Position numbers and translations under genes: made by a program. The notes under the pieces are model-generated. The model made no database searches. It was given only the letters and a program-made list of their open reading frames with translations, and was not told where the DNA came from. Shown here one piece after another: positions 14,512-62,800 of a stretch of 64,000 bases of DNA (position 1 is its first letter; each line of letters begins with the position of its first letter). The stretch is from NCBI GenBank assembly GCA_002633005.1, contig NMRA01000674.1, positions 62,001 to 126,000 of the forward strand, read 5' to 3'. Source of the stretch: Phoronis australis (taxonomy: Eukaryota; Animalia; Phoronida).

Positions 14512-15323
14512 TTAAGTTCTTAATAGCATGTATAAAATGTGAAGTCGTGCGTCTTGCTGACTTGTGACAATTACGTAACCGATTTCGTCCAGTGTGCGAT
14601 GGGTGTAAGACGAGGGTGTCAATTGTCTCCCTTTTTGCTCCCCTTGTTTTTAAATGATATGGAAAGAGATTTACAAAATGAACAAGGCTCGAGTGTAAAT
14701 ATTAGTCTAGTAAATTTATATTTACTGTTGTTTGCCCATGACTTGGTTCTCGTTGCAAAGCCGTGCTGTTGCCATGCAGAGATTAATTACCAAACTAGAA
14801 GAATATTGTTATAAATGTAAACTTCATGTGAACATGTCAAAACAATAAATGTTGTCTTTCGTAAATTGGGATATTAAAAAATATATAAAAGGTGGAAATT
14901 ATTCGGGGAAACTGTATCAACTACTTCAGAGTATTACTATTTAGGAATCAAATTTACCCCTAAGAGTGTGTTCACAAAGGTTCAGAATACACACAGCACA
15001 TGACTAAATACACTGCCGTTCCTGTGCAAACGTGGTTAAAGTTGTTTGATCAAAAGTAATACCGATTATGTTGCATGATTCTGGAATTTCATCCTACACA
15101 AGACAATGAAAAACTGCACAATAAATTTTGTAAGTTCTCATTGCGACTTGGACAGCATGTTTCAAAGGTTGCAGTGAGGGGAGAGCTTGGCAGAGTGACG
15201 ATGAAGGTAAATTTACTATTGAAAATTGTTGAATACTCGTTAAAGATTTTCAAAATACAAAGCCATCGTTATGTTAGCGTATGTTATAATGTGCAATATG
15301 AAATGGTTGAACAAAATATGTGT

Positions 15324-16716
15324 TCATCAATGCCCGTCACCCCTACCAGTGTATAGGCCACGAATCAGAGATTTCCATTTTTTCTGTCCTGGGCGATTCC
15401 TTCTAGCTGTCTCCATGAGTATCCTAACCTCTCCATATCATCGGTGATGCATCTTCTCCAGGTCATTCGTGGTCTGCCTCTATTTCGTTTATCCTGTGGG
15501 TTCCACTTTAATGCGTGTCTGGAAGGGCTACTTGTTGGTCTTCTTAGTGTATGTCCAATCCAGCGCCATTTCCTTCGGCCGATCTCCTCTTCCACTGGTG
15601 TCTGTCCTGTTCTTTCCCACATTTCTCCATTTCTTATCCTTTCTGGCCACTGTATCCTCAAAATTTTCCTCAGGCATGAATTGACAAAAGTTTGCAGTCT
15701 CTTGAACTTTGTTTTTGTGTTTCTCCAGGTCTCTGATCCATATAACAGTACTGATTTAACGTTTGAGTTGAACAATCTCAATCTTGTTTTCAGCGAGAGT
15801 TTCCTAGCTTTCCATACTTTCATTAGTTGGTAAAATGCAGTTCTGGCCTTGGCAATTCTTGCTCGTATGCCAGTTTCGGTCCACCCTTTTTATCTGTCTT
15901 GCTGCCAAGGTATGTGAAATGTTCAACTTCCTCCAGGATTGATCCATTTATTTCAATTGGTGTTTCTGTCTCTGGGGTTAAGTTAAGAATTTTTGTTTTT
16001 CCACTGTTGATGACAAGGTCAATCTTCCTTGCTGTTTTGTCCACTTCATCTGTTTTCCTTCGCATTTGGCCTGCTGTGTGAGAAAGTAGTGCGATGTCAT
16101 CTGCGTAGTCCAGGTCATACCGCTGTGTCCATAGGGTCCACTGTATTCCGTTTCTTCTGCCTGTTGTCACCAGTGTCATTGTACAGTCTACTACTAGGTT
16201 GAAAAGAAAAGGTGGCAAAAGACAGCCTTGCTTCACTCCTGTTCTAATTTCAAATGGGTCTGTCATTTCACCGTCATGAGGAACACGGCAGTTCCTTCCT
16301 TCGTACATGTTTTTGACCAGTGTCACTATCTTTTCTGGGATGCCATAATGGCGCATGAGCTTCCATAACGTGCTTCCGTCGATGCTGTCAAATGCCTTTT
16401 CAAAATCAACTTAATTGATCATTAGGGAAGAGTTCCCTTCCATGGATTGTTCAAGGATGATTCTTAACGTTGCTATCTGATCGGAGCAAGATATGCCTTT
16501 CTTGAAACCCGCTTGTTGGTTTTTCATCTACCTTGAACTTGATTCGTTGTAGGATTATGCTACTAAATACTTTCCCTGGTATTGATAGCAGCGTTATCCC
16601 TCGATTGTTGTTATAGTTTCCAAGGTCTCCTTTCTTTGGTGATTTTATTAGGTGTCCTTCTTTCCAATCGTCTGGAAAAATTTCACCTGTCCATACTTTG
16701 TGGAAGAGGTCGTTCA
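15324..16716 (-). mobile_element. 5'-truncated RTE-clade LINE (frameshifted RT)
   Basis: DWKEGHLIKSPKKGDL, RGITLLSIPGKVF, GVKQGCLLPPFLF, LDYADDIALL, FTYLGS, RRKWRWIGHTLRR, RGRPRMTWRR; short TGATGA tail. Confidence 0.9.
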
Positions 16717-36462: not shown

Positions 36463-38741
36463 TAAAAGCGCTGATAAATCAATGCGCTAGGATCGAATAA
36501 CCACATGCGCAGAGATACAGGGTATAGTAACATCTGGCGGCAGTCACAGAAACTAAGGGTATCGAAATAGAGTGGATTAAGAGTAAGACATGGCACTATT
36601 TTTCAACTTAAGAATGCGACTGATAGCCATGTCTTGCATTTTTTATGGTAGCCTTTCAAACTTTATCACTAGGGCTTCTAAACGTGCACGAATCGTGTGT
36701 CAAAGGACGTTATTTTACTATTGAAAATACGTTTGGATCAATACTTCATACAAATGAGCAGCATGTGTCGTTGAGTGTCAAAACTGTAGAGTATATTCTT
36801 ACTGGTATATGAGCTACTTCTCGGCTGACCAGTATATTCTGACCAGTGGACCTATATGAGCTGCTCCCCCGCTAAAGTACAAATGTGGAATACTAGAACT
36901 GTCGAGTTGTTTTACGTCAAACGCCCATGCACTCCTGTCTTAATTAACTTAATTGTGGGTCTCCAGTTGCGCGCGTCCGTTTTACCTTTAATTTGTGTGC
37001 TGATATGTGCGGGGCTTAGGGTGGGCGTATATTTAGCTCTAAATTTTCCAGCACAGCAATGACGAAAACCAACTATTACGCGTAGCCTTGCATACTCCAC
37101 GAAGAAAACCCTCACCACGAACTCACCGTACTCAGGCACTCCTACCTCAGACAACGTTTTAGGGCAGAAAATACAACACACAGAAAATGAGTTGTGCACT
37201 TCAGTCACAAGAACAAATAAAATGATTTTTGGTGAGTGTCTTAGTGGGGTTAGAATTCGTTTCCACCTCCTGTCATGTGCTTCCCTAGCATATACATTCC
37301 ATGAACTAATTTCTTTGTTAACCGTCTAGTTATAGGCTATATCAACACGTCAAGAGAACTTGAAAAGAAGAAGACCTCAAACGAAGTCGCGTCACCGACA
37401 GGAAGCTTTGTCAAACCAGTTCATACTTTGTCCAACGCCAAATCCACCTCCCTGGCAAAGCTTTCTCACACAACGGGACAGTCTATTCTTTCCACACAAC
37501 TTTGGCGACACGGCGCAACCTCGTTTCCAGTTACTGTTCAAAACGAACAGGACAAGGGACGGACAGGTCTCGTGCAATCTTTTCTGACAACTACTTTCAT
37601 AATTTTATTTTACTGATGTGAAACCGATCAATTAATACTCAAAGAAAAAGAAGGTAGGAGCAAAATTTGCACTGTAAATGTGTTCGTCTTTTTTATTTAA
37701 ATGACTGAATCCTTGCTTTTTGCCATTTTTGATTTGAGTCGAATTGTTTGGAAATAAATGAGACAAGATTTTACGAGTTTTCACGAAGTGTTGAAAATTT
37801 TCAACGAGTTCGTCTATGTTTGATAGACAAAATTAACTTTGACAAAAATAGGTGATCTTACGACCGCAACTAATAAATGTTATAAATAGGACCACGTGAC
37901 CTATATTGTCCACGATGCAAAGAAGATAAACAAAAGTTTTAAGTCGATTTCTGCAGCTAACATGTATACTCAGGTAAAGATCCTATATTTCTCATGAATT
38001 TATTATTCTATACTCCACTGATTATCGTATGCTGTACATGCATACAGCGATCTTGATGCACAAGTCATGGTCGAGCAACAAACAATGGGATGGCAATGAA
38101 TGAGGTTGAAGGTTTCAAAAACGAGAGTGTAGGGCCAAAGGGAACCGGAAACTGAAATTATGCTAACCTCGACGATCGATCGGATTCCTTGTATCACTAA
38201 CTCATTTTTAATTGGTGAACTTACCGAAACAATAAAACCTTAGCAACTTCGCTGTTTGTTTTGATGAATAAGTTGTCAAGCAGGATATTTCACCTTTCAA
38301 TCTACGATCCAGTCATAATCCTGGTTCTGCATGTTCTCATAGTTTTTTCATCTTTTATTGCCAAAGAATGTTAGGCCTCACTGCTTTGAGTGCTCTGGAG
38401 ATATATTGTATCCGGATCAAAGCTTTTGGTTCGTGTTGATGTGTCATGTACAAAATACCGTGTTATTCATCTAATTCGGGTCCAGCGACTTTCAATGCAA
38501 ACACTTTATTTTTAGTTCAGTGCAAACAATATTGTTTTAAATGGTATCTAGGCCTTCCAGGTTACTTATTTTATGCTTTAAATCTCATTATGCAAGTCAC
38601 AGAACATAACTCCACAAGTACAAATATCACTAACTGGAAAAATTCGAGTAATTAGTGAATTTACGAAACATAAACAACTGTATTACTGTGTCTATGGTTT
38701 ACTGAATGAAAATTTATCATCGGTTTTCCCCTCTGTTGTAG

Positions 38742-39994
38742 TTACTTATGGGCTACCAAAAGTGTCGAGTGCACCACCATCTCTTGTAAAAGCAACAGCG
38801 ACGGTGTTGATGGTGAGTAACACCACTTCCGGTTCTCCTTCTTTGGGTGGTTTGCCAACAACTGTTAATCACCCACTAAGGATCGCTTCTACAACGAACA
38901 AGTTTTTAATCACATCGGAAGCAAGTTCAGTGAAGAAAGCAGATAGTGTCGTTATACCTACAAGGTTTTCACCGAACTCATTAACGTCAAACACAGCAGG
39001 TTCAGTAGTGACAACAAAAACGACAGAAATGGAACACGTAGAAACGTCAGTAAGAGCCGTAAAAGAGAAAATGACGCCATCATTATTAGGATCTCTAAGC
39101 ACAGCCCAGATGCCAAAAGAATCAAACCGCTCGGCTGACTTATTTGGGAACATATTGCAAGAAATCGTTACGGAAACGCTAGTGCTGAGCACTGCAGGTT
39201 TGGTGAATACGGGTACATTTACGACACAAGTGAATCCATCAGCAAAACAGTCAACATCCTCATCGGAAACAGAAACAGCATTTAGACAAACAACAAGAAC
39301 GAAAAGACCAGTTACTACGCTTGCGGAGTCTGCCTCAGAGGCAGCAGCAACAACAGCAGCATCAACAACAGCATCAACAACAACGACAACTGTACCTGTA
39401 ACAAGGACAACGGCACCAGCAGCAACAACAACAGCAACAGCAGCAACAACAACAGCGGCAACAACAAAATCAGCAACAACAACAGAATCAAAAACAACTG
39501 AACCCACAACAACGACACTAACTACAGCAAGAGCAACAACAACAACAGCAGCAATAACAACAGCAGCAGCAACAGTAGTATCTACATTAACAGCAGGTTC
39601 AACAACAACATCAACAGCATCAGCAGCAATAACAACAACATCAGCAGCAGGAACAACATCAATGGCAGCAGCGACAACTGCAGCAGCAACCTCATCAGCA
39701 GCAACAGTAGCAGCAGCAGCAAAAACAACGACAACAACCACAATATCAGGAGCAGTACCAACTTCCACAGAAGGTGCAACTATAGAAGCATCGTCAGCAA
39801 CAACAACAACAACAACAGCAGCAACAACAACAGCAACAACAACTGCAGCAAAACCGAAACTGTCTTGTCATGGAAATGATGTCCTGTGTTCTGATTATAC
39901 GTGCATCAAATCACACGAGCTTTGTGATGGAGTCAAAAATTGTCCACGTGGAGAAGATGAATTCAATTGCCAAAACGTAACGCGTGGCAAATAA
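38742..39994 (+). CDS. Gene A large exon: Ser/Thr/Ala mucin-like stalk plus C-terminal LDL-receptor class A module (CHGNDVLCSDYTCIKSHELCDGVKNCPRGEDEFNC)
   Basis: Acceptor ttttcccctctgttgtag| in phase 1 is in frame with ORF 38762-39994 and with the phase-1 donor at 20519. Six-Cys LDLa spacing with CDG...C...DE. Confidence 0.85.
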
Positions 39995-40866
39995 ATGAAC
40001 CACATTCGCTTCATGTTCATCATGACCAATTAAGAACGCCACATTAAAAAACAGCAATCGGTTGCGCTCTAAAACATGAGTGTTAAAGATGACGCTGTCT
40101 TAAGGCCTCGCCGAAGAGCTAAAACGTGTTGGGTCGATTTTCCATGGCAGCTTGTTTAAAACTGTCATTTTTGCATACACATATGCCCTGTACACACATT
40201 TGAATATTATCTGGGAAATNAGTAGTATCTACAACAACAGCAGGTTCAACAACAACATCAACAGCATCAGCAGCAATAACAACAACATCAGCAGCAGGAA
40301 CAACATCAATGGCAGCAGCGACAACTGCAGCAGCAACCTCATCAGCAGCAACAGTAGCAGCAGCAGCAAAAACAACGACAACAACCACAATATCAGGAGC
40401 AGTACCAACTTCCACAGAAGGTGCAACTATAGAAGCATCGTCAGCAACAACAACAACAACAACAGCAGCAACAACAACAGCAACAACAACTGCAGCAAAA
40501 CCGAAACTGTCTTGTCATGGAAATGATGTCCTGTGTTCTGATTATACGTGCATCAAATCACACGAGCTTTGTGATGGAGTCAAAAATTGTCCACGTGGAG
40601 AAGATGAATTCAATTGCCAAAACGTAACGCGTGGCAAATAAATGAACCACATTCGCTTCATGTTCATCATGACCAATTAAGAACGCCACATTAAAAAACA
40701 GCAATCGGTTGCGCTCTAAAACATGAGTGTTAAAGATGACGCTGTCTTAAGGCCTCGCCGAAGAGCTAAAACGTGTTGGGTCGATTTTCCATGGCAGCTT
40801 GTTTAAAACTGTCATTTTTGCATACACATATGCCCTGTACACACATTTGAATATTATCTGGGAAAT
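39574..40866. repeat. 646-bp near-identical tandem duplication across the N at 40220 (probable haplotype-overlap artefact)
   Basis: 39574-40219 matches 40221-40866; the only difference noticed is tctacattaaca vs tctacaacaaca. The junction is a single N. Confidence 0.9.
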
Positions 40867-49313: not shown

Positions 49314-51842
49314 ACTTTATCACTGATGCATGCACAACGGCGCCAACAAAAATGTTTTCGCGGAACTCAAGGACAGGTTAAGTTTCTTCCCGCCTCATAA
49401 GAACTGGAACAAAAACTTGAACATCGGATAGTCAACGGAGTGGCAGAATGCCTGCCACGGCAGAATTGAAATTAAAGTAGCATGGGACGGCAGTCATTTC
49501 ACATGTGTAGTCCGTTGGTTAAGTTGTACGGCCGTATGAAAGTAATGTTCAATAGCAGTCGAAAGCAAGTCTAATGTGAGAAGGCGCCACGTGACCCATA
49601 TTACTTGCTTGGGCTATTTTTGTTACTGAGGCCATTATCCATTAAAATGTGCATGACGCAATTTCCAGATTTTAATTAGATTGCGCATGCTCGGTAGACG
49701 CACCTACTGAATTCCATTCAGAATTCCATTCAGTATCGCGATTAGTAGAATACTGACTGGCTATAAATAGACCGTGGTACTCTATAATGTGTTTCAAAAA
49801 TCGCTAAACCCGTTCCAAGGTCAGTATAAACTAAATACCCCCGCCATAAGGTGGTCCCACCCAAAACTTATGAAGAAAACAGGACCGCTTAAATCCCAAA
49901 AACGCCTTGTCAACGGCACTTTCTTCTTCGTTTTTAGTCACGTCTTTTGGAGGGACCAGGATCTCTAGCCCTCCTCCCCTAATTCCGACAATCAGTTCAC
50001 GAATGGTCTTCGTCAAATTAATAACTCTTGGGAAAATGTTAAAGTGATAACTCTCCAGGATTCGTCATGTCTTTGTAACGTTACGGTTTCTCTTGTGGCT
50101 GTTTTGGTTCAATTATAACTTTACTCAACTACTAGTTGCATGATATGAGATAACTATAGTAAAAAAATGCTATGTAAGACCAATATGTTCCTTCCCTATA
50201 CAGGATTCGTGCAAGGTTCTGTACCGTGAGCGACAATTATAAAGTGGTTGGTTTCTTATCTTTATTTCTTTTCTTTGGTCCGTAACAAGGCTCCCCATCT
50301 CAATAGATCTATAATGAATACCTTTGCCACCACTTGAAACGTTTAGGCAAACCGAGAAAGAGAGGGAGGAGGAGAGCAGGGCATGGAACTTTTCAAACAA
50401 CTCGGATATTTTCGTAGCCTCAAATTTTCTCCCGAAGGTGAACATTATCTGCGCATGTGCAGACTTCAGACACTTACGACACCCGTTGACACACTGCTTT
50501 AATGGGTATACACGCAAACAGAAGTGCGCCCTTACGACTTCCGGCCAGAAACGGCGGAAACAAATGACAGTGTATTTCATGACTCGTTAACACAATCAAC
50601 TCCTTAAGGTCAAAGATAAAATCTTCAATGACTGGTCTCGCGGAATGAGGAACCATGAAATCGAGCTGCTTGAAAACAAAGGAAAAGTGCCTCCTACATG
50701 CGCGCTCCCAGCCTAAAAATGGCGGGCTCGAATTTTTGAGAATGTGGACCTTTTACTAAGTTTCACGGGGTACGTTCAGAGCTATGAATTGTGCATTCAT
50801 CGAATTTTGGTAGTTCCTGCCTTTTTAGTGAAATTTTGTCTCGTTTTCTACTTTTTCGAAGTTTTTGTCTCTTTGAGGCGTACCTTTTTGCCCACTTCGC
50901 CAAATGACGAGACAAGTGTGTGCTGATTATTGCTAATGTTGTGGAGAGCTTTTACCAATTAGAGACGAGAAGCGGTGACCAAATTGCATCGAGTTAATCA
51001 CCGCGGATGATACTTAGAAGAGAGTCACATGAAAAGCCACGTGACTTAGCAAACTGGAGAATGATTGGCCGCATGACTGAAGATTCCACATCCACAGATA
51101 ACTTTCGCCACCGAATGGCGAAGAGAGAAACAGAGAGAAAGGGGATTAAAGGGAAAGGTAGGGAAGGATATTAATAGGGTTAGAGAGGGAGAGGGGGGAT
51201 GGAGGGAGGGAGAGAGAGGGAGAAAAATGAAACAAGGCCTATAATTTTGAACGTACGTGATAGCGGCACTGGTCGGTTCACGAAGTTCTGCATAACACGC
51301 TCGGCTGTTTCCGGCGATACTTCTTCATCGTCACTAATAAACGATGGATTGTCATACACTTGCTGCTGAAAAATAATAAGACGGTGCTTACAACTTCATG
51401 ACATGCTTATACAACTACAGCCTTTAATTTATGTTCAAGAATATTCGTTATGCTTATGCAAAAACATGGAAATACATCATGCAAGCGCGATTTAGTGGCG
51501 GACTTTCAAAAACAATTATGTTTCGATACTCACATTGTACTCAGGGTCACCTTTCATGAACGCCGGGTAAACCCGGCTTATGAGGCCACTTACTTGAGGC
51601 AATGGGTACAAAAACATGTGACCAGATGTTGATGTAACGTAAATCCATTTCAGGATAAGCAAGGAACCAACGAAATCGAAAGTAGTTAACGTGACATTTT
51701 TTAAAATGAAACATTTTTAAAAGCGGCTACAAACCCACTTTCTTCAAAAAATAAATTTGGGGCTCTATCCGTTTTAACATTTGCCTTACTCCTATGAGAG
51801 GTGATTCACTGGCTTGGTAGAAACTGGGATTTCGTTATTGCT

Positions 51843-52082
51843 TGAGGTCTCAGAAAGATGCTTGTCACAGTGAGTCTTTTTATGCGCTGAGGTCTCAGTA
51901 GATTGCTTGTCACAGAGAGTCATGGGCATTTTATGCGCTGAGGTCTCAGTAGATTGCTTGTCACAGAGAGTCATGGGCATTTTATGCGCTGAGGTCTCAG
52001 TAAATTGCTAGTCACAGTGAGTCATTTTAGGCGCTGAGGACTCAATAAGTTGCTTGTCTCAGTAAGTCATTTTATGTGCCGA
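51843..52082. repeat. 45/51-bp minisatellite, about 5 copies
   Basis: tttatgcgctgaggtctcagtagattgcttgtcacag recurs. Confidence 0.9.
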
Positions 52083-52639
52083 ACTATGACAAACTGCCAG
52101 TTCTTCCCTAGCGCGGAAGTCATTCCTCATCTGAGCAAAGAACAAGTTAATACCAGTTTTATGGCAATAAGCAGTCTAAATAAAATGGGTTGATAGCCTT
52201 GGCTTTTCAGTTTAGCTTAACTCAAATAATTTGGAAAGTTTTCCCATAGTCTTCCTTCAAAAGACAGTCATCAGTGAGCGTTTTGAATTTCAGTAAATGG
52301 TAAATGTAGCAATATGTCAGTTGCAGCATAACCTATCGGAATCACGATGTGTTATGTTGCAAAATGAAATGATTACGACATATCTCATAGGGCGCTCGTT
52401 GTATTATATCGTAATACAAATCGCCTGTCACATTTTGTGGTCTTTTTCATTCAGAAACATAGTTTGACTGCAAGAATACCTGTGTGATAGAAACCCATCC
52501 AACTTTTTGCTCATTTATGGCAACTAATTTGCAAATTGGTTTTTCTAATCTACGGGCTTTTTTATCTTAGGCAGCATTTCACAGTATATGGGTAATGACG
52601 CCAGATCAATAATTATATATTGAAAGTAAATCAATTCAA

Positions 52640-52851
52640 GTGTGTTGGTAGTTTCGACCACAGGTTGTGGTGCTTAGCGTCTAGTGTGGTAGTGTAGTTA
52701 GTTGTAGTATCTAGCTCTGCTTAGTGCTCTGCTTTCAGCTTCCGCCGCTGTTCAGTTCCGACTGTTAGTACATAGCTTCTCCCACAACAAGACTCGTGCA
52801 GTGCCTCCACGCGGCAACACATGGACTGGGTTTACTCAGACTAAACTGTGC
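52640..52851 (+). ncRNA. HDV-like self-cleaving ribozyme at the 5' end of a LINE
   Basis: P1 GUGUGUU (52640-46)/AACACAU (52816-22) with G1.U wobble; P2 GUGCAGU (52796-802)/ACUGUGC (52845-51); P3 GCC/GGC; L3 UCCACGC; P1.1 CC (52807-08)/GG (52823-24); P4 CUGGG/CUCAG; J4/2 ACUAA with C52841. Confidence 0.88.
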
Positions 52852-53492
52852 GGGATCGGGTTGGGGAAGGGGTTTTTCTGTCTTTAGCAGCCGCTGTTGT
52901 TTCGAACGATATGAGATGCCGAAAACTTTGTTGGAAGCATTCTCTGTTCTCGGGTGATTGATCAGTGGCTCTAGAGTGGGAGGCCTCTCTAACCCAATCA
53001 TCCCCCTTTGGGGCGCCTGGTCAGGAGTATCTTGACTTTGACCTCTTCGGGTCCGATTGATACCCCTTGTCTCCGGTCAGGTGACACGGGAACCCTTGAG
53101 AACTAATACCCTGGTTCTTGAGTCTTAAGCCAGTTGCGGCTGGTGGTAAACAACACAGAACTTTGCGTATCAAGTAATCTTGGGCAAACCGCGGTGCACG
53201 GAGTAGCGCCTGTTGCACTAGGGGACAAGCCTCTGCACGGTTAGCCCTGGGAGGTTGCGAGGTTCTGGCACTTGGAGGTAGACATACTGAACCTGGGTAG
53301 TCCATTTGCAGCAGAAGCCCTTTCGCTGGGGGTCATATGCTCGCTTGGAGGAACCAGGGGAGGGAGCTGTTGAAACCAGTGTCAGATCCTATAGGTTTGC
53401 GGATGCAGGAAAGCCTTTGGCTGGGCCTTGTTGCCACCCTATGGATAGGGTGAATGCGGATGCAGACCTGAATCATAACCTATACTTGCTAT

Positions 53493-54794
53493 ATGGATCC
53501 ACAGCGAAAACCAATAACCCACCCTGGTCAGGGTTCAAGTGACCAGCGCACAGGGCAGTCGAATGTGGTCTTTGCGGCCACGGACGTCCGCCTCAAAGAC
53601 TCCTCCCTAGGAGTTTCTATAAGGCAAGTGGAAGCACCCCCTACTGTGGACGCTTGCTCTGGGAAATCACTGGACTCTTCTATGAGAGTGGAAAGTGAGA
53701 TTACCAAGCTTGTGAAAGCGGCTAGGGTGGCTGCTGACGCGAACCCCAAACCTGCCCCGGACACTCCTCACGGAGCGAATGGTGGCGGAAACACTTCAAC
53801 TGGGCCTGATGGCAGCTCCCACCGTCTCTCTGCTGCTGCTAGGCGGAAGACAAAGCGGGCTCGCCAGGCGGCTCAGAAGAAGCTTGAAAACCTAGAAATC
53901 GATGTTCAGCAGGGTGTTAAGCGCCCTAAGTCTGACAGCTCGACTCCTGGGACATCCTCAAAACCACCCACCAAAGTGGCTAAAGTGGATAAACTACCTT
54001 ACGCTAGTGTGGCTAAGAAGGATCTTAGCGTCTTTGTGGCTGCAAAAGCTGGTGAGCCACCACTAAATGAGGACGAGGCTAAGCGTCTGAAGCGCCGACT
54101 ACAGATGGCATTTGTCAAACCTCAGAGACCCCGTGTCCCGCTTCATATTAAGTCAGTGAGACTTGAAAAGGGCAAACTGGCGATTGCCTGTGATAACTCA
54201 GCTACCCTTGACTGGGTCAAACTTGAGTGTAAGGAACTTACTCCTGATGGTCCTGACTCTCACAGGTCAGGGTACCACGTGATGGGTCCAGGCGATCTAC
54301 CTCCTGTGTTCAAGGCCTTCTGTCATGTGTCAGAGGAAGTTGCCTCTAATAAGGATGAGTTCTTGTTGGTCCTTAAGGAGTGCAACGATGACCTGGATAT
54401 GACAAAGGTTCATGTGGTGTCAATGACTGCCATCAAACCAACGTTAAAATATCCCTCTAAGGGATTTACCATTGTCCTAGCCTTTGAAGAGTCCGCTTGG
54501 CAGGTTCTCCGGGGGATGGATTTTCGTCCCTGGTGTGGCTTTGCTGGGCGTGTGCTTTTTAGAGCTAGGGGTAAAAGCAGTAAGGGGGCCAAAGCTTCTG
54601 TCCAGGCCTCAGAAGGGATGTCAACCTCGGACATGGAAGCTGACTGTGTGCCCACCACAAAGTCAGCAGAAATGGACGTGGGTGATGAAACGACTGAGGT
54701 AGGGAATGTTGCTGAGGCTTCTGAACCTGTACCATCCAATGACAGATCTTCTCTGGCTCCTTCCCCACTCACGAGTGATGTGGAGTCTGGATAG
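53493..54794 (+). CDS. LINE ORF1 (gag-like, DUF4780-type domain), 433 aa
   Basis: Intact ORF: basic N-terminal region, PYASVAK, VRLEKGKLAIACDNSATLDWVK as in LOA/R1-type ORF1s. ORF2 follows after 31 nt. Confidence 0.8.
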   Translation: MDPQRKPITHPGQGSSDQRTGQSNVVFAATDVRLKDSSLGVSIRQVEAPPTVDACSGKSLDSSMRVESEITKLVKAARVAADANPKPAPDTPHGANGGGNTSTGPDGSSHRLSAAARRKTKRARQAAQKKLENLEIDVQQGVKRPKSDSSTPGTSSKPPTKVAKVDKLPYASVAKKDLSVFVAAKAGEPPLNEDEAKRLKRRLQMAFVKPQRPRVPLHIKSVRLEKGKLAIACDNSATLDWVKLECKELTPDGPDSHRSGYHVMGPGDLPPVFKAFCHVSEEVASNKDEFLLVLKECNDDLDMTKVHVVSMTAIKPTLKYPSKGFTIVLAFEESAWQVLRGMDFRPWCGFAGRVLFRARGKSSKGAKASVQASEGMSTSDMEADCVPTTKSAEMDVGDETTEVGNVAEASEPVPSNDRSSLAPSPLTSDVESG

Positions 54795-54825
54795 ACAGTC
54801 ACTGGTATATTCTTAACATGATGAA

Positions 54826-56066
54826 ATGAATCATGAGGTTAAAATCTGGCAGATAAATCTGCACCGGGCCAACAACCCATCAGTGCTTCTGCAGCAGACG
54901 CTTGAGCGCAATACCCTATTCATGGCCTTCATACAAGAGCCGTGCTGTCGGGGAAGTGCAATGATGAACACTCCTAGGAATGCCAAATCTTATATTGCTT
55001 CACTGGGTAACAACATCAAGCCCAGGGCTGCGATTCTGGTATCCAAGGACATAACCTCAAGAATCCTTCCTGAGTTTTGTGACAGGGACACTGTGGCAGT
55101 GTCCTGTGATACACTAAGACCAAATGGTCTAATATGCACAGTATGGTGGGTCTCAGCCTATATGCCAGGGGACTCCGCCGAGAACCCACTCCCACCTAAA
55201 CTGCAACAAATCACCAATCACTGCAGAGCCAAGAATATCCCTTTGGTTATCTGTTGTGATGCCAATTCACATCACGAGGTGTGGCACAGCACTGACACCA
55301 ACCCAAGAGGTGAGGCACTTCTAGAGTTTATTGTCAGCTCACAACTTGTAATATGAAACAAGGGCCATGAGTCCACATTTGTTGTCAGAAACCGGCAGGA
55401 GGTTATAGACATTACTCTGGTTAATTTGCCTGCTGTTGATGTGGTAACTAATTGGAGAGTGGATTCTGCACCTTCTTTATCTGACCACAGATACATCAGG
55501 TTTGAAGTGGCGACTTTCGTTGTTCTACTATTTACTGAGTATAGGAACACCAATAAGGTGAACCAAAGAACTGGCAGCACTTCGGGGTAAGGCACGTAAA
55601 GCTCACAGAACGGCAATTCGGACTGACACTGACGAGTGCTGGGATTCATATCATCTTGCCTATCGTATGTTTAAGTCTGCCACACGCAAAGCAAAGCGCA
55701 ATTCCTGGAGGAATTTCTGTCAGCAAACTAACAGCCTCTCTGCATCTGCAAGGCTGATGCAATTGCTTAAGAAGAATCGCTCCGCCGAGGAAACACTCGA
55801 AGTCATGATGGGTAAGCACTATCCTGATAGTGTAAACCTGTCGAACCAATATTCAAAAGTGACGGACTCAGAGGTGTGTGAACCATTAGTTTATGCTGAT
55901 GTTGAAAACGTAGCCACACCACATCTCGTGGAGTTAGCTCTAAAGTCTTTTAAACCATGGAAGTCCCCAGGACTAGACATGATATATCCCATAATGTTGC
56001 AAGAAGCTGGGATACCACTATTCCATATACTCACAGCAACTTACAAAGCCAGTCTTAGACTAGGTT
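54826..56066 (+). pseudogene. LINE ORF2 N-terminal part: APE endonuclease and start of RT, disrupted
   Basis: QINLH, IQEP, SAYMP, CDANSHH..WHS, NPRGEALLEFI, (stop) NKG..STF, VIDITL, SLSDHRYIRF; then WRNFCQQ and KSPGLDMIYP. Confidence 0.85.
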
Positions 56067-57146
56067 NATTGAACACTAGCCTCAACTGACTTTCGTATCT
56101 CTTAGTCGGGCACAAAATATAACAGTGAGTAGCTTCAACAATATTTCTTAAGATTGCCTGTCCAAATAACTTCATGCACACCAGCTTTCTGAAGAACAGC
56201 TTCAAAATCTTGCTTTAGTTTTGAAAGGCAACTGTCATATCCATGTGTTAGAAGCTTTGATTCAATGAACTCCAAACAAAACTGTAGACAAACGTCTCTG
56301 AAAACTGTGGATTCGTCACTCTTCACAATCGTCTTTCTATTTTTTTTACCATGAGGAGCTGGGGTTCTTGGCTTCTAAGACCCAAGGACTTTATCTTTGA
56401 ATTCCATTTGCATATTCAGGGATCTGGACTGAGCTGTCGCTTGCGAAAAAAACCCGAACTGTTAACACTAATTTAACATTCAACTATGAGTGAGTTGGCA
56501 TGCAGACGGGCTTATCAGGAACTGATCCACTACCAGTCTAACAAATTTACATGCCGTCTGATCTGTAGCCTAATAATGTTGATCGTCTAATAAATAGATT
56601 AGTTGATGCAACTGAAAATAAATCAGCTGAAATACCAGTGCAGTGATTGAAATTTAATTTTTTTAAAATCAGATGCTCAAAACATATCCAATCGATTTAC
56701 ACTTAAGGTAATCGTCATTTGACGAAATGGACAGTGGTTTCCATCATCTTCAAATTACGACGGCGACGACGGCCACTTTGGCACTCTAATTTAATTATCA
56801 TTGCAGCTACCTAAGTAATTATTGTTTACAAAAAATAGAAATGAGGTTCCCCCTATCCCAGGACTACGACAGGGGATGACGGCCACTTGGCAATGTTGTT
56901 TGCAACCATCTACTCCATTTAACCTTCTCAAAAATTTTTGACTTAAAGCGCTTTAAAATCACACCCACAGTATAACGCCATATGATTATCCCTTAGCGCA
57001 AGCAGTGTCGATGTGGCAACTGAACAATGGAGTGTTCGAAAAACAGGATTGCAGGAGTATTTGTTTAAACTGGGAACAAATGAAAACATTAACGACCTCT
57101 TCACAGGCATCTCTCTGCGGTACTTCTAAACTTATAGGAACATAAT

Positions 57147-58562
57147 TTGCATATTACAGAAAAAATCTCAAAAGCCAAATCTGCATTGGTGAGATGCAGT
57201 CGTGCGGTGGGTAAAACTTGGGGAATGTCTCCCAAGAATATGTTCTGGATTTATACTGCTGTTATCCGACCTATAATGTCCTATGCTTCGTTGATATGGG
57301 TAACGGCATTAAAACAGATTACAATTATCAACAAACTTAGGCAGCTGCAACGTCTAGCTTGTTTGTGCATAACCTCTGCTTTTCCAGGAACGCCTTCTGC
57401 AGCCCTAGAAATGCTAATCGGTCTACCACCACTGAACATATACCTTGAGGGTGAAGCTGCATCTGCTGCACTTCGTCTCAAATATAATGGTCAGTGGGTG
57501 AAAACTAACATCCCTGACTCCGTTGCACACAGAAGCCACAGGAATGTTTGCAATAAGCTAATGGCCAAGACTGGGCAACTATGGAACATGCCTAGTGATG
57601 TCCAGGTCACAACTTTAAATCATACAAACAATTTCTTCACGGAAATTGGCGATGGATGGCCTACCGCAGAACACAAGAATGAGGTGGTTTGTTATACGGA
57701 CGGCTCTAAACTGGAAAATGGCCAGACAGGTGCTGGGGTCTACTTTCCAAGCCTTCCTGTTGCAGATGCAGAAAACTGGGTATCGTTGGGCAATCTTGCC
57801 ACGGTGTTTCAGGCTGAGATCACTGCAATTAATAGAGCTGCTCAACTGGCACAACAATATAACACTGAACTTGGCAATCGGCCAATTATCATCTTTTCAG
57901 ATAGCCAGGCAGCAATAAAAGCCCTAAAGAAACTAAGGGTCAACTCTCGTTGTGTTAATGCTTGTATTAATGAGCTTAACAAGCTTGCAATTGAAAGAAC
58001 CGTCAATATACGCTGGGTCAGGGCCCATGTGGGAATTGATGGCAATGAGAATGCAGACAGACTCGCAAAGATAGGAGCAAGCGTTCTGCATTTTGTGCCT
58101 GAACCTGCTATCCCGGTATCTTACGGATGTTGCAGGATGAGTATACGCAACTGGGTACATACCCAGTCAGCAGCCCAGTGGGCATCACTTAACTCCTGCC
58201 GAGAAACCAAGGAGAATTTTCCCAACGTGATCGAACCAAAAGGTTCAAAAAGCCTTCTGAGTCTAGATAGATTGGGTATAAGACACGTCATTCAAATTTT
58301 GACGGGCCACTGCAACCTAGCCCGACACAGACACATTACTGGGCATATGAGGAGCCCTGTGTGTCCCGAGTGTGGTACTGACGTAGAATCTCCTAAACAC
58401 CTGGTAGAGTCTTGCCCAGCTTTTTATAGGCTAAGGAGCAACCTACTGGATGGCATTGTTACATGCCTACAACATATAGTGCATGGCAACAAATGGAAAC
58501 GTCTGTCCGTTTTCCTAAAGGAGACTGGCAGACTTGAAAACTTTCTTCACGAGGAGCCATAA
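57147..58562 (+). CDS. LINE ORF2 C-terminal fragment: RT thumb/connection, RNase H, CCHC zinc knuckle (no true start)
   Basis: WIYTAVIRPIMSY; RNase H YTDGSK, VFQAEITAI, FSDSQAA, WVRAHVGIDGNENADRLA; QILTGH...CPEC....ESPKHLVESC. Confidence 0.9.
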   Translation: MHITEKISKAKSALVRCSRAVGKTWGMSPKNMFWIYTAVIRPIMSYASLIWVTALKQITIINKLRQLQRLACLCITSAFPGTPSAALEMLIGLPPLNIYLEGEAASAALRLKYNGQWVKTNIPDSVAHRSHRNVCNKLMAKTGQLWNMPSDVQVTTLNHTNNFFTEIGDGWPTAEHKNEVVCYTDGSKLENGQTGAGVYFPSLPVADAENWVSLGNLATVFQAEITAINRAAQLAQQYNTELGNRPIIIFSDSQAAIKALKKLRVNSRCVNACINELNKLAIERTVNIRWVRAHVGIDGNENADRLAKIGASVLHFVPEPAIPVSYGCCRMSIRNWVHTQSAAQWASLNSCRETKENFPNVIEPKGSKSLLSLDRLGIRHVIQILTGHCNLARHRHITGHMRSPVCPECGTDVESPKHLVESCPAFYRLRSNLLDGIVTCLQHIVHGNKWKRLSVFLKETGRLENFLHEEP

Positions 58563-58681
58563 TTGGGGTCTCGTGCCTTTGCTCAGGTGTTTTGTGCAAT
58601 GGGCCCAACCATGAGGCCTGCGCACGTCTGATGCACCGCAAATGACATCAGACCACCTGCACTGTTTTTCTTTTGTTTTTT
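57151..58681 (+). mobile_element. 5'-truncated LOA-like LINE copy with 8-bp TSD TAATTTGC and T-rich tail
   Basis: TAATTTGC at 57143-57150 and 58682-58689; the body is the ORF2 C-terminus plus 3' UTR. Confidence 0.75.
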
Positions 58682-59622
58682 TAATTTGCTGAAAAGCATC
58701 CTGAATATGGAGTACTTATGGTATGATCACCGTCTCTACTGGGTCAGCGGTATTGTTTATGGCCTAGGCAGCCAAGGAGCTGAACAAGTTAAAAAAACAA
58801 CTGGTGATAATACTGAAACACACATGGAAAACACCAAGATATACGTTTCAAAAACACGTAACTATTTTACAAAGCTATACTTCTTTCTCTTTCTTGAAAT
58901 ATGGTCCATAATATACTTTTCCTGCAAACAAATGATGCACTCATGTTTCAGAATGTTCCTATCTTATTCAGGTTAATTGGGTGTTTCAGATTTTGGAAGC
59001 ATAATTGATTTTCTTGGGAAATCTTGGATAACATCTGTATCACTTTCAGCAACTTCAGCTTTAGTACTACTGTTGGTGCCTTGAAAAGTTGATATGCCGT
59101 TCTATGTCCTTTCAATTTCTTGGTCTTCTAGTCTACAGCACTCAGCAGTATACTGTGTAGGCTATACCAGGACATGCAGCTGTTTTCTGCACAAACGTTT
59201 GTGACACCTCTTCTTCTTTTTTATCTACTGATCTAAAGAGTTCCACAGTCCATCAGAGTTCGTCAGGAAGCTTTCCTAATCTTCTTTAGGCTCTGGCATC
59301 ACAATTTTGTGCTGTTTGATAAACCTTGAATTATACAAGCATCGCACTCTATGGGAGCAGCCATATTGAAGTAAGTAAGCACAACAATACAATCTGGCTC
59401 TCTGATTGGTCAATTCAATAGAAAAGCGCCACCAAGTGGCAGTAATGTGCATAATATTTTGTGCAACAAAAACGCCTTTTTTTAAAAATGTGCAAGTGTA
59501 GACGAGGGAACTTTTTGGAATTTGATTTATAGGTATATTATCTAGCCACATAGAAAAAACTAGGTTGCCCCCCAAAAGTACTCACAAGGATGAACGCTAT
59601 GAGAACAGACCCCCTTACAAAA

Positions 59623-59885
59623 ATGAACTTAAGTTTTTCGCCAAAAACTTTAGTTTTTCAGCACAATGTTAAGTTTTTCAGAAAACTTATTTTTTCAAGT
59701 GTACAACTTAAGTTTTCACAAATAAACTTAAGTTTCAAGTAACAACTTAAGTTTTCATGAAAACATAAGTTTTTTGTACTAACAAAACTTAAGTTTTTCT
59801 GATAACTTAAGTTTATCACAAAACTTAAGTTTTTGTAATTTTAAAAACTTAAGTTTTCCTGATTTCTTAAGTTTTTCAGAAAACT
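59623..59885. repeat. Irregular array of the palindromic motif AAACTTAAGTTT, about 12 copies
   Basis: Directly visible with variable spacers. Confidence 0.85.
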
Positions 59886-62800
59886 GGATTTTTTATTTGT
59901 TTCTATGTGATCAAAATTTACGTATTCAAGTTTTTAAAATTTGAATATTGTGAGATATTTAATTTTTGGTTCGAAATTTTTCCCATTATTTTCCAACAAA
60001 AAAAAAATTGTTTGCTCATGCAAAACCCATGATCTCAAAAAATGTTGCCCGAATGTTTCCTTAACATTTATATAGATACAAATACCATAAAACGACGAAC
60101 GTTTAACCTGGTCAGTACAGAATTAGTGCAGTTATGTAATCATTACGGCACTGCGTATTTGTGAATTTAAATGTAGACGAACATCCGGTGACCAACAGCA
60201 GTAAGAATGCACCCAATGTTAATCTCCTGAGACACTGACCTGGTCAGTACAATGTAATCAATAGAACTCATGCAATTCTTAAAAAAAGTAGTTATTTTGC
60301 AAGTTTCCTTTGTGTTGAGTTGTATTCGTAAGGCAGTTTCCACCGGAATGCAACAGTTTGAATTTTATAACCGACAGTCAACTTCGAAGAAAGTCGTGTG
60401 TTGGCTAGCCCGCGACAATGAAGTTTATATTATTACGAGCAGAGCCAGGAAGAAGACATTTCAGAAGTTTTGGAAGTCAGGTTAGTGCCAGAGAGCGTTT
60501 TAAAATCGATTGGCCACAATCGGTGGTGTGATTTCCAACGAACGTGTTAAGTTCAGTTGTTATTGTCAGCCACTCACGAGTCACGCTGTCATATACCGAC
60601 ATGGACTCATTCTGTGTGTGAATTATCTAAACTTCTAACGCGTAATATACTTCTGGAGGTCAATCAGTGGAAGCCATAACGTTCACATGAGGCTATTACT
60701 ATATTATATTTCTGTCTTCTGAGGTTGTGTCAGTGCTCAGGTCAGTGTGATCATTGCAAGGGGGGGGGGGAACTACCAAGGGAAAGTGTAATCATTTCCC
60801 AAGTTGGGTATATTGGCATTGGTTGTGTGTGCTCATGTCTATGTTCGTAGTAATTCTTGGAAGCTCCTGATTTTGAAATCTCATATCACTACAGGTCAAT
60901 AATTTGCAAGGTTCACTTGCCTCATCAACGCACCAGTCCTAAAATATGGGGGGTGCTCAAATTTTTGGGCATGTTGACCTTTTACTAAAAAAACGTGGTA
61001 TGTTCAGAGCTGTGCACAGTGCATTTCTGAATTACATCTTTTTAGTGGACTCGCATCTTGTTTTCTCAATTTGTTTTGTTTCTATGAGGCTGACCTTTTC
61101 ATGCCCACTTCGGCAAGTGGGGGGGTGCTCGTTCGAGCCTCCCCTGGGTGCGCGCATGTGCCTGGTTCTCAAAATTAAGAATAACCAATGTAAATATTGT
61201 ATTGCCTATTTTGACTGATTTGCTCAGGTTTGTCGGGAGGATCTAGGTTATTGAATGCAAAAGGACATCCCGATCCCACTACTAGTACCCTATCTGGAAT
61301 ACCGACCGGTATAGGTCACAATGTACCCAAGTGAACTCTCACCAGTGAACGTGTTAAGTTTTTTTGTAGTTCGTTTTTTTAAAAGATCGTATTTTTAAAT
61401 ATTCAAAAAATCCAATTTTACCTCGATTTTTTTTTCAAAATGCACAGGGATCATCATCAACTGTTTCCTTACGCAATATTCTACTTATCCATACCAAATA
61501 TATGTACAAAATCATTATGATCTTGATTTTGTGGCATTTTTTGTGTGTGAGTTGGGGCAAGCACGCCACTTTTTGTCATTCGGTAACTTTCCGTCTAATA
61601 ACTAAAAATCTGGTCCATTTATCAAAAAACCCTGGCAAATTTGCAACTTTCGTAAAAATTGATGCACGTGTTGTGGAAAAATAGGCCCGAGAATCTTGTC
61701 ACTATCCTGAAATCAGGAGCCGAGAAAAACGGCTTTGAAGTTAAGCGGTCATCAATTGCCACTTGAGATCAAATTTCGTTCAGAATGCGTAGTCATTATG
61801 TTCCAATTTTTGTTGAAGTACTAGAAATAAAGCTGATACTTACTTCATATTTAGAAAATATGACACACCTGTTTGTTTACAGCGTAATTTTAATCATTTT
61901 TTCGAACCTGTGAAACACGACAGACGACCAAAACAAATATGGCTGTCACGTGGGCGGAGCTTAGCGTTGATCTATTGTCTGCTGTACTGGTGTGCCGATC
62001 ACACATTAAAACCATGTGTTGATTGTTTATACGATTCATGTGAACTCTCCACTCAAGTTTGTAAAAGACTCTCTAACTAGATTACTCAGACCTATTTGTT
62101 AGTATTCCAATATTATCATCAACCAATATAATATATTGTGTGTTATATCAAATCGCCGCGTTACTGCCTACATATACATGTGTACACTGGCGACGAGGAT
62201 AAAGAACTACTTTCATAGTAATGATTCAACATTTTTACGTGCCTGTACCGAATGGACTTTGGGATAAAAAAAATATCACTTTCTGCGCAAATAGCGCTGC
62301 TTGGGTGAGATTCTCAAGTTACTAAAGTTTCTTATATTGCTTTCCCCTAAAATCGTATAATATCATGAGTTTTAATTCAGGGTTACGTTTGAATCTATGC
62401 ACTAGAAAATTTTTTGTTATGTTGAACACTGGGTCATTTCTCTAATTCTTTGGATTACGGCCAGTGGCAAGTTAAAAATCCTCTGGGTTTGACAGCCTAG
62501 ATTCTCCACGGCGCGTTCCCAGCACAGAAGCACGGTTTATCTGCGAAGACTCTACTCTGACGGCATGTAGTTGTCCATGTGTCGCGCGCGCAGCTTGTCT
62601 TCACAGCGCGTGCATGCACTCTCACCGAATCGTGCAACACCACCCGCGTCGACACTCAGCGTCCTCTCCCAAGACACCTGACCTTATATTACCGACTTCT
62701 CTTATAGTCTTATATGCATGCACAATTTCTGCGCGGACTCCTCAAGCTGAGTGCAGTGATGGCTTCGGTAGGGCTTGGCGTACTCAACTTATTTTTTTTG

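What the first reader, a model, noticed from the sequence alone, without database searches (positions are those of the whole stretch)
52640..52851. Complete HDV-like ribozyme with a 149-nt J1/2 marks the 5' end of a LOA-like LINE
Seen: all five helices can be drawn. P1 GUGUGUU/AACACAU with a G1.U wobble; P2 GUGCAGU/ACUGUGC, extendable to 10 bp; P3 GCC/GGC around UCCACGC; P1.1 CC/GG; P4 CUGGG-UUUA-CUCAG; J4/2 ACUAA with the putative catalytic C52841. The P1 5' strand is 149 nt upstream of the core, where AT-rich flank gives way to the GC-richer UTR. Known: HDV-like ribozymes process the 5' ends of R2, RTE and LOA (Baggins) elements, and R2 versions can have long J1/2 inserts. Inference: this element is co-transcribed from a host promoter and frees its own 5' end by cleaving between A52639 and G52640; the long J1/2 and ~640 nt of downstream UTR may support cap-independent ORF1 translation. 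The class is known, but this instance, the A.A mismatch at the base of P4 and a probably non-arthropod host may be new.
Basis: partly seen in the sequence, partly recalled or inferred. Interest (0 to 1): 0.88.

Follow-up and report, generated by a model that had tools for sequence, protein, structure and literature searches.

The report
Self-cutting RNA heading a LOA-like retrotransposon
A jumping gene in this animal genome begins with a 212-letter RNA fold of the hepatitis-delta type that likely cuts the element free of upstream RNA; the element's edge falls at the predicted cut site, but such ribozymes are already known at the start of this kind of retrotransposon.

Summary
Real, well placed, but a known kind. 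All five helices are at the stated coordinates. A full-fold descriptor hits the window once and 0 times in 40 shuffles. Read data put the 5' edge of a young, multi-copy LINE at 52640, give or take about 3 nt. The LINE has a DUF4780 ORF1, an APE-RT-RNase H ORF2 and a LOA-type 3' stem-loop; this copy is broken and lacks its RT core. Six of 80 related elements carry HDV-like cores before ORF1 with different but pairing P1 strands, one with a 160-nt J1/2. Cleavage is untested. The proposed novelties do not hold up: HDV-like ribozymes in LOA, long J1/2 inserts and LOA outside arthropods (Ciona) are in print, and the A/A at the base of P4 is in Rfam's drz-agam-1 consensus. J1/2 folds no better than shuffles and varies in length between copies, so nothing supports an IRES role for it. 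Side lead: 13 related elements carry a strongly covarying structure just before ORF1; this window does not. The scan noted ribozyme-headed RTE and Vingi elements on other DNA, none on this sequence.

The parts
52640..52646 (+). P1 5' strand; G52640 is the predicted cleavage site and the element's 5' end
   Evidence: pairing; boundary from depth step, flank haplotype and other copies
52647..52795 (+). J1/2, 149 nt; predicted 7-bp closing helix 52664-70/52782-88; length varies between copies
52640..52661 (+). predicted local hairpin that competes with P1
   Evidence: minimum-energy folds; P1 pair probability 0.3-0.46 without pseudoknot energy
52793..52854 (+). ribozyme core: P2 (7-10 bp), P3, L3, P1 3' strand, P1.1, P4, J4/2 with predicted catalytic C52841
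52855..53492 (+). rest of the 5' UTR; 7 upstream ATGs (an eighth lies in the core at 52821); no match to the pre-ORF1 structure of relatives
53493..54794 (+). ORF1, open, DUF4780 domain
   Evidence: (E 5.9e-8)
54826..56066 (+). ORF2 5' part: APE endonuclease and start of RT; a premature stop at 55354-56 and a deletion of about 180 nt near 55560, both absent from the majority contigs
56067..57148 (.). an N followed by about 1.08 kb of unrelated high-copy repeat in place of the RT core (residues 491-765 of P0001)
57149..58562 (+). ORF2 3' part: RT end, RNase H, CCHC knuckle; may belong to the same or to a second copy of the family
   Evidence: (RNase_H E 1.5e-15)
58563..58683 (+). 3' UTR with LOA-type stem-loop (58593-58625), a second hairpin, and a T-rich end
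   Evidence: other copies diverge behind 58674 and 58683

Best explanation
This is an HDV-like ribozyme fold at the 5' end of a LOA-like LINE that likely cuts itself at A52639/G52640 during transcription, so that element RNA made from upstream sequence would start at the element's first base. Shown: the fold, its position at the element boundary, and the element's anatomy. Inferred: C52841 acts as the catalytic base with Mg2+, leaving a 5'-OH end; full-length copies therefore begin at G1 of P1; J1/2 is a tolerated peripheral insert whose 7-bp closing helix would hold P1 near P2, while a local hairpin over the P1 5' strand would slow folding. The uncapped RNA would need non-scanning initiation for ORF1, but where that signal lies in this family is not identified. 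This particular copy cannot encode a working ORF2.
For: Canonical core and 7-bp P1 with G1.U; 0 full hits in 40 shuffles. DNA contig depth 5 in the flank, 232 at 52650-90; an aligned contig part begins at 52640; a flank haplotype with 3 differences leaves the window at exactly 52639; RNA reads of another copy join a different flank to the same P1 5' strand; a contig from a second study diverges before 52643. Majority contigs differ from the window only outside the core in the rows listed. Of four core changes in a minority copy, three keep the pair. Related elements carry the core 5' of ORF1 with wholly different P1 strands that still pair: 7 of 7 in L011, L020, L023, 6 of 7 in L036, L066. Known for LOA (PMC5786205 passage) and Baggins (PMC6765202 passage; PMC3774820 passage).
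Against: No cleavage data. No pile-up of RNA 5' ends at 52640 in two RNA runs (93 and 58 reads laid, mostly from diverged copies). P1 is A/U-rich and loses to a local hairpin in the minimum-energy fold. P2 has two tandem wobbles. No two-sided compensatory change was seen inside the family (124 rows of the table were not shown). Only 6 of the 32 related loci scored upstream show a core, and the nearer relatives L006 and L007 show none. Rfam score is below gathering.
Confidence: 0.8

Rival explanations
1. The element has its own internal Pol II promoter, and the ribozyme mainly trims read-through RNA or protects and shapes the template's 5' end, as discussed for L1Tc and R2.
For: L1Tc has both an internal promoter and the ribozyme (PMC3185411 abstract start). 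HDV folds improve template use apart from cleavage in R2 constructs (PMC11331408 passages). No RNA depth over 52445-52608 in two runs.
Against: No promoter was tested. A young family keeps the catalytic residues intact. Zero flank depth says little, as most reads came from other copies.
Confidence: 0.2
2. The fold is kept but slow or inactive in this family: the 149-nt linker and the 52640-61 hairpin keep P1 from forming.
For: P1 pair probability 0.3-0.46 here against 0.89-1.0 for L011; J1/2 z +0.8; long or weak J1/2 linkers slow HDV-like ribozymes (PMC4908430, parts 1-2 of 4 read). Four reads span another copy's junction uncut, strand of origin unknown.
Against: The folding omits pseudoknot energy; a 7-bp closing helix and a 10-bp P2 are the features that speed cleavage in PMC4908430; full-length copies start at or within 3 nt of G1.
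Confidence: 0.15
3. Chance match, or P1 wrongly assigned.
For: Rfam below threshold; descriptor written after seeing the site.
Against: 0 of 40 shuffles; the P1 5' strand coincides with an independently mapped element boundary; same arrangement in relatives.
Confidence: 0.03

Closest known systems
HDV-like ribozymes of LOA-clade LINEs (Baggins; Ruminski et al. 2011, not held, seen only as cited in PMC5786205, PMC6765202, PMC3774820)
   Same: HDV fold at the first base of a LOA-type element; predicted cut at the element's 5' end
   Different: A separate sub-lineage from the named insect proteins in the tree; host probably not an arthropod; whether Baggins J1/2 is long could not be checked
R2 5' ribozymes (PMC3774820 section 12 and passages; PMC11331408 and PMC6765202 passages)
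   Same: Long J1/2 between P1 and the core; about 184 nt for R2 against 212 nt here; conserved L3 G
   Different: R2 is site-specific, Pol I co-transcribed and has one ORF; many R2 use 28S sequence for P1, whereas P1 here is element-encoded
drz-Agam-1 (RF01787) and drz-Agam-2 (PMC4908430)
   Same: Core letters align column for column, including GGA after P1 and A-C-U-A-A; Agam-2 has a large J1/2 with P1.2 and an extended P2
   Different: 15.1 bits, below gathering 37; J1/2 here is not unusually stable
LOA clade elements Lian, Bilbo, TRIM, CiLOA (PMC2790886 passages)
   Same: RNase H behind RT; a Lian-aa1-named protein and a DUF4780-fused psyllid protein are among the 120 best hits; shared 3' stem-loop topology
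   Different: 30-36% identity to those named proteins; T-rich rather than short-repeat 3' end

Membership tests
HDV-like ribozyme | 6-7 bp P1 starting at G1 with a G.U or G-C first pair | tested here: met
   7 of 7, G1.U
HDV-like ribozyme | P2 stacked on a 3-bp P3 | tested here: met
   P2 7-10 bp with wobbles, P3 3 of 3 Watson-Crick
HDV-like ribozyme | P1.1 and L3 with conserved U and G | tested here: met
   CC/GG; L3 UCCACGC; the G is described as needed in PMC3774820 section 12
HDV-like ribozyme | Catalytic C in J4/2 (C-N-R-A) after P4 | tested here: met
   C52841 in A-C-U-A-A, aligned to the drz-agam-1 consensus
HDV-like ribozyme | Covariation of helices | tested here: inconclusive
   Across related elements P1 changes fully and still pairs; within the family only one-sided changes were listed, and one broke P1.1
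HDV-like ribozyme | Mg2+- and C-dependent self-cleavage | not testable with these tools
   No 5'-end pile-up at 52640 in 151 laid RNA reads, which is uninformative
Rfam HDV-type families | Gathering score | tested here: not met
   Best 15.1 bits to RF01787 against 37; none. L011, L014, L020, L023, L036, L066 were missed too
LOA clade | Two ORFs; ORF2 APE-RT-RNase H | tested here: met
   RT core missing in this copy, present in full-length relatives
LOA clade | RT phylogeny groups with LOA, Lian, Bilbo against R1, I, Tad1 | tested here: inconclusive
   C-terminal tree of 80 of 156 rows without outgroups; the element sits with unnamed proteins apart from four named insect proteins, on an open branch
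LOA clade | 3' end in short tandem repeats (recalled) | tested here: not met
   T-rich end at 58665-83; several relatives do end in short repeats or poly(A)
Intact LINE insertion | Target-site duplication | tested here: not met
   No copy of the last 10-14 flank bases in 55000-60000 and none of 6-9 bases at the 3' end; the two halves are separated by an N and may be two copies

The most novel reading that the evidence does not exclude
LOA-like LINEs carry a two-module 5' leader: an HDV ribozyme that makes the 5'-OH end, and a separate covarying, probably pseudoknotted structure just before the ORF1 start that recruits ribosomes. This non-arthropod family would use a diverged form of the second module, and its long J1/2 with the competing 52640-61 hairpin would act as a folding switch that tunes cleavage.
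Probability: 0.15. Interest if true: 0.65.

Novelty: new member of a known kind. Interest (0 to 1): 0.3.

Why it matters
It would extend ribozyme-made 5' ends to a LOA-like sub-lineage in a probably non-arthropod animal, and it offers a natural series of J1/2 lengths in one young family for testing how a long linker affects cleavage. The principle is established, so the gain is breadth. The covarying structure before ORF1 in relatives bears on the open question of how uncapped LINE RNAs are translated and deserves its own follow-up.

Tried and rejected
No whole genome is held, so copies were examined only through reads and contigs. Rfam on 50000-56000: no HDV family; on 12 loci: none. The first descriptor was too strict on P4 and missed all 80 loci. 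Viral contigs: 34 pattern matches, no relative. ORF1 homolog search: 0 of 7996 candidates at E 1e-5. APE-domain tree did not finish. No empty-site joint or TSD appeared among the joints listed (9 not shown). No RNA holder was listed by the index. Alternative P1 strands at 52684 (6 of 7), 52482, 52185 (6 of 7) and 52347 (7 of 7, single-copy flank) were rejected. An IRES role for J1/2 was rejected on folding and length variation. The pre-ORF1 model did not match the window (best 9.5 bits, on the minus strand in the flank; nhmmer none). Host genes: 94 ORFs gave only LDL-receptor A repeats and RT fragments. The 'P1.2' and 'P2ext' lines were out of register; the helix is taken. Paper searches for DUF4780 and for the P4 base pair found nothing; one search returned unrelated papers. 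Not held: Ruminski 2011, Webb 2009, Eickbush 2010, Permanyer 2003; they may already describe long-J1/2 or non-arthropod LOA ribozymes.

Full report
Observation. The sequence shows all helices as described. P1 pairs 7 of 7 with a G1.U wobble, P2 7 of 7 with two wobbles and three more pairs, P3 is GCC/GGC, P1.1 is CC/GG, P4 has 5 bp, and C52841 lies in A-C-U-A-A. J1/2 is 149 nt. A descriptor demanding all helices finds this one site on both strands of the window and none in 40 shuffles; 2 core-only hits arose in those shuffles. The descriptor was written with this site in view. Rfam does not call it: nothing in 50000-56000, and 15.1 bits to drz-agam-1 for the core alone. That alignment is still useful, because the family consensus also has GGA after P1 and an A before the catalytic C, so the A/A juxtaposition is not new.

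The element. ORF1 starts at 53493 and carries DUF4780; ORF2 carries APE, part of RT, RNase H and a CCHC knuckle. Full-length relatives of about 1200 residues are abundant (307 hits at E 1e-30); the nearest, P0001, is 54%, 42% and 54% identical over three collinear pieces, with residues 491-765 missing. In their place lie an N and about 1.08 kb of a different high-copy repeat. Majority contigs lack this copy's stop at 55354-56 and its deletion of about 180 nt, and differ from it by 5 in 1307 and 9 in 1555 letters, so the family is young and this copy is broken. No TSD was found; the two halves may be two copies. The 3' UTR has the stem-loop topology seen in 8 of the 14 related 3' ends printed (picked by eye).

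Is 52640 the element's end? DNA contig depth is 5 over 52445-52608, 21 in the bin holding the junction and 232 just after it. One of three contigs with the common variant at 52650 aligns from 52640. A 330-nt contig matches the flank with 3 differences up to 52639 and has 66 further letters that do not fit; by the coordinate convention visible these lie beyond 52639, which suggests an allele without the insertion, but the letters were not printed. Four RNA reads of another copy join a different flank to the same P1 5' strand (all). A contig from a second study diverges just before 52643. Together these put the boundary within about 3 nt of G52640. The DNA runs X1-X4 are one sample and may be the window's source.

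Variation. In the rows listed, majority contigs equal the window through the core. A minority copy changes 52807, 52818, 52838 and 52850: three keep their pair, one breaks a P1.1 pair (124 rows not shown). J1/2 is plastic: a 47-nt duplication in 9 and 6 reads and a contig of depth 39, and, inferred from loose ends, deletions of about 90 and 38 nt. It folds no better than shuffles (z +0.8 and +1.1). A 7-bp helix closes it, and a hairpin over 52640-61 competes with P1, whose pair probability is 0.3-0.46 without pseudoknot energy.

Relatives. Of 158 related metagenome loci 80 were kept. The descriptor finds core, P2 and P4 in 3 of 80 (L011, L036, L066) against 3 in five shuffled sets, and the full fold in 1 (L011) against 0. 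A score over 32 upstream regions put L036 (63) and L011 (57) above the maximum of 96 shuffles (54); the window scored 65. A loose core signature gave 49 rows, of which I judged 6 HDV-like by eye (adding L014, L020, L023), all on the sense strand before ORF1. P1 pairs 7 of 7 in L011, L020, L023 and 6 of 7 in L036, L066 with unrelated letters; L014 is cut off. J1/2 is 160 nt in L011, about 100 in L036 and short in L020, L023, L066. P2 of L020 and L023 was not resolved. The nearer relatives L006 and L007 show no core; their 5' ends may be incomplete.

RNA. 93 and 58 reads from about a fifth of two RNA-seq runs were laid, mostly 85-95% alike; depth begins in the junction bin and no 5'-end pile-up is listed at 52640. 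This neither shows nor excludes cleavage or read-through.

Mechanism. Most likely the RNA cuts itself before G52640 by the HDV mechanism (established knowledge; catalytic C per PMC11331408 passage), so transcripts from upstream start at the element's first base. Long, weak linkers slow such ribozymes, and a P1.2 helix with an extended P2 speeds them (PMC4908430, parts 1-2 of 4); this one has both a modest P1.2 and a competing hairpin, so its rate is open. Eight ATGs precede ORF1, which fits non-scanning initiation but does not locate it.

Known and new. LOA is listed among six clades with 5' ribozymes (PMC5786205 passage); Baggins is named in PMC6765202 and PMC3774820 (passages; section 12). 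Long J1/2 is stated for R2 (PMC11331408) and Agam-2. LOA is known from Ciona (PMC2790886 passages). Strict LOA membership was not settled: the tree has no outgroup. The host is weakly indicated as non-arthropod: all 14 species-named hits among the 120 best for a neighbouring RT fragment are non-arthropods, 10 of them gastropods, but such elements move between hosts. Searches for a LOA ribozyme outside arthropods found no report, but the key paper, Ruminski 2011, was not held. No supplements were read.

Side lead. A 120-nt structure just before the ORF1 start occurs in 13 of 80 loci (12 of them built the model; L023 is the independent hit at 45 bits). Two hairpins covary strongly (11 of 13 pairs with two-sided change), and two loop pairings that I drew by eye are less well supported (78% and 83% paired). 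Five of the six ribozyme-bearing loci have it. The window does not match. One search found no description of it.

Verdict. A real, correctly placed, untested HDV-like ribozyme of a known kind on a broken copy of a young LOA-like LINE. Interest 0.3.

Noticed in passing
L014:155-273, L036:270-387, L029:1491-1608, L011:378-495, L019:488-609, L012:592-711, L020:699-814, L023:534-664, L033:3802-3922, L047:813-933, L056:518-642, L063:462-586, L073:635-755: Covarying two-hairpin structure with possible loop pseudoknots just before the ORF1 start in 13 of 80 LOA-like loci; no Rfam match in the 7 of them scanned; candidate translation-initiation element; absent from the window by model search.
   Followed up: partly
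L011:45-288, L036:4-177, L066:516-593, L014:1-60, L020:201-300, L023:143-240: Further HDV-like cores at the 5' ends of related LINEs, all missed by Rfam; L020 closely resembles the drz-agam-1 consensus; P2 of L020 and L023 not resolved.
   Followed up: partly
window 58665-58683: The family appears to end in a T-rich tract rather than poly(A) or short repeats; tail or target is unclear. Some copies duplicate the 43-nt 3' stem-loop.
   Followed up: partly
window 52630-52643 and two other copies: All three 5' flanks seen are A-rich with CAA a few bases before the junction; target preference or chance, n = 3.
   Followed up: no
window 52773-52870: The RNA reads with first mate on the minus strand come mostly from a copy with a broken P1.1 pair; library strandedness unknown.
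   Followed up: no
window 56068-57148: High-copy repeat (contig depth 450-1400) in place of the RT core; sequence after 58683 is also high-copy.
   Followed up: no
window 15368-16410 (-) and 14536-14811 (+): Fragments of other retrotransposons: RT with DUF6451, and a second RT fragment.
   Followed up: partly
window 38582-40640: Host gene piece with a Thr/Gln/Ala-rich repeat and an LDL-receptor A domain, duplicated at 647-nt spacing across an N at 40220; possibly an assembly duplicate.
   Followed up: no
window 51843-52076: About five copies of a 45-51 nt tandem repeat 560 nt upstream of the element.
   Followed up: no
L005:1-390: The 3' end of a related element, with a short-repeat tail, lies directly before another copy (read by eye).
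   Followed up: no
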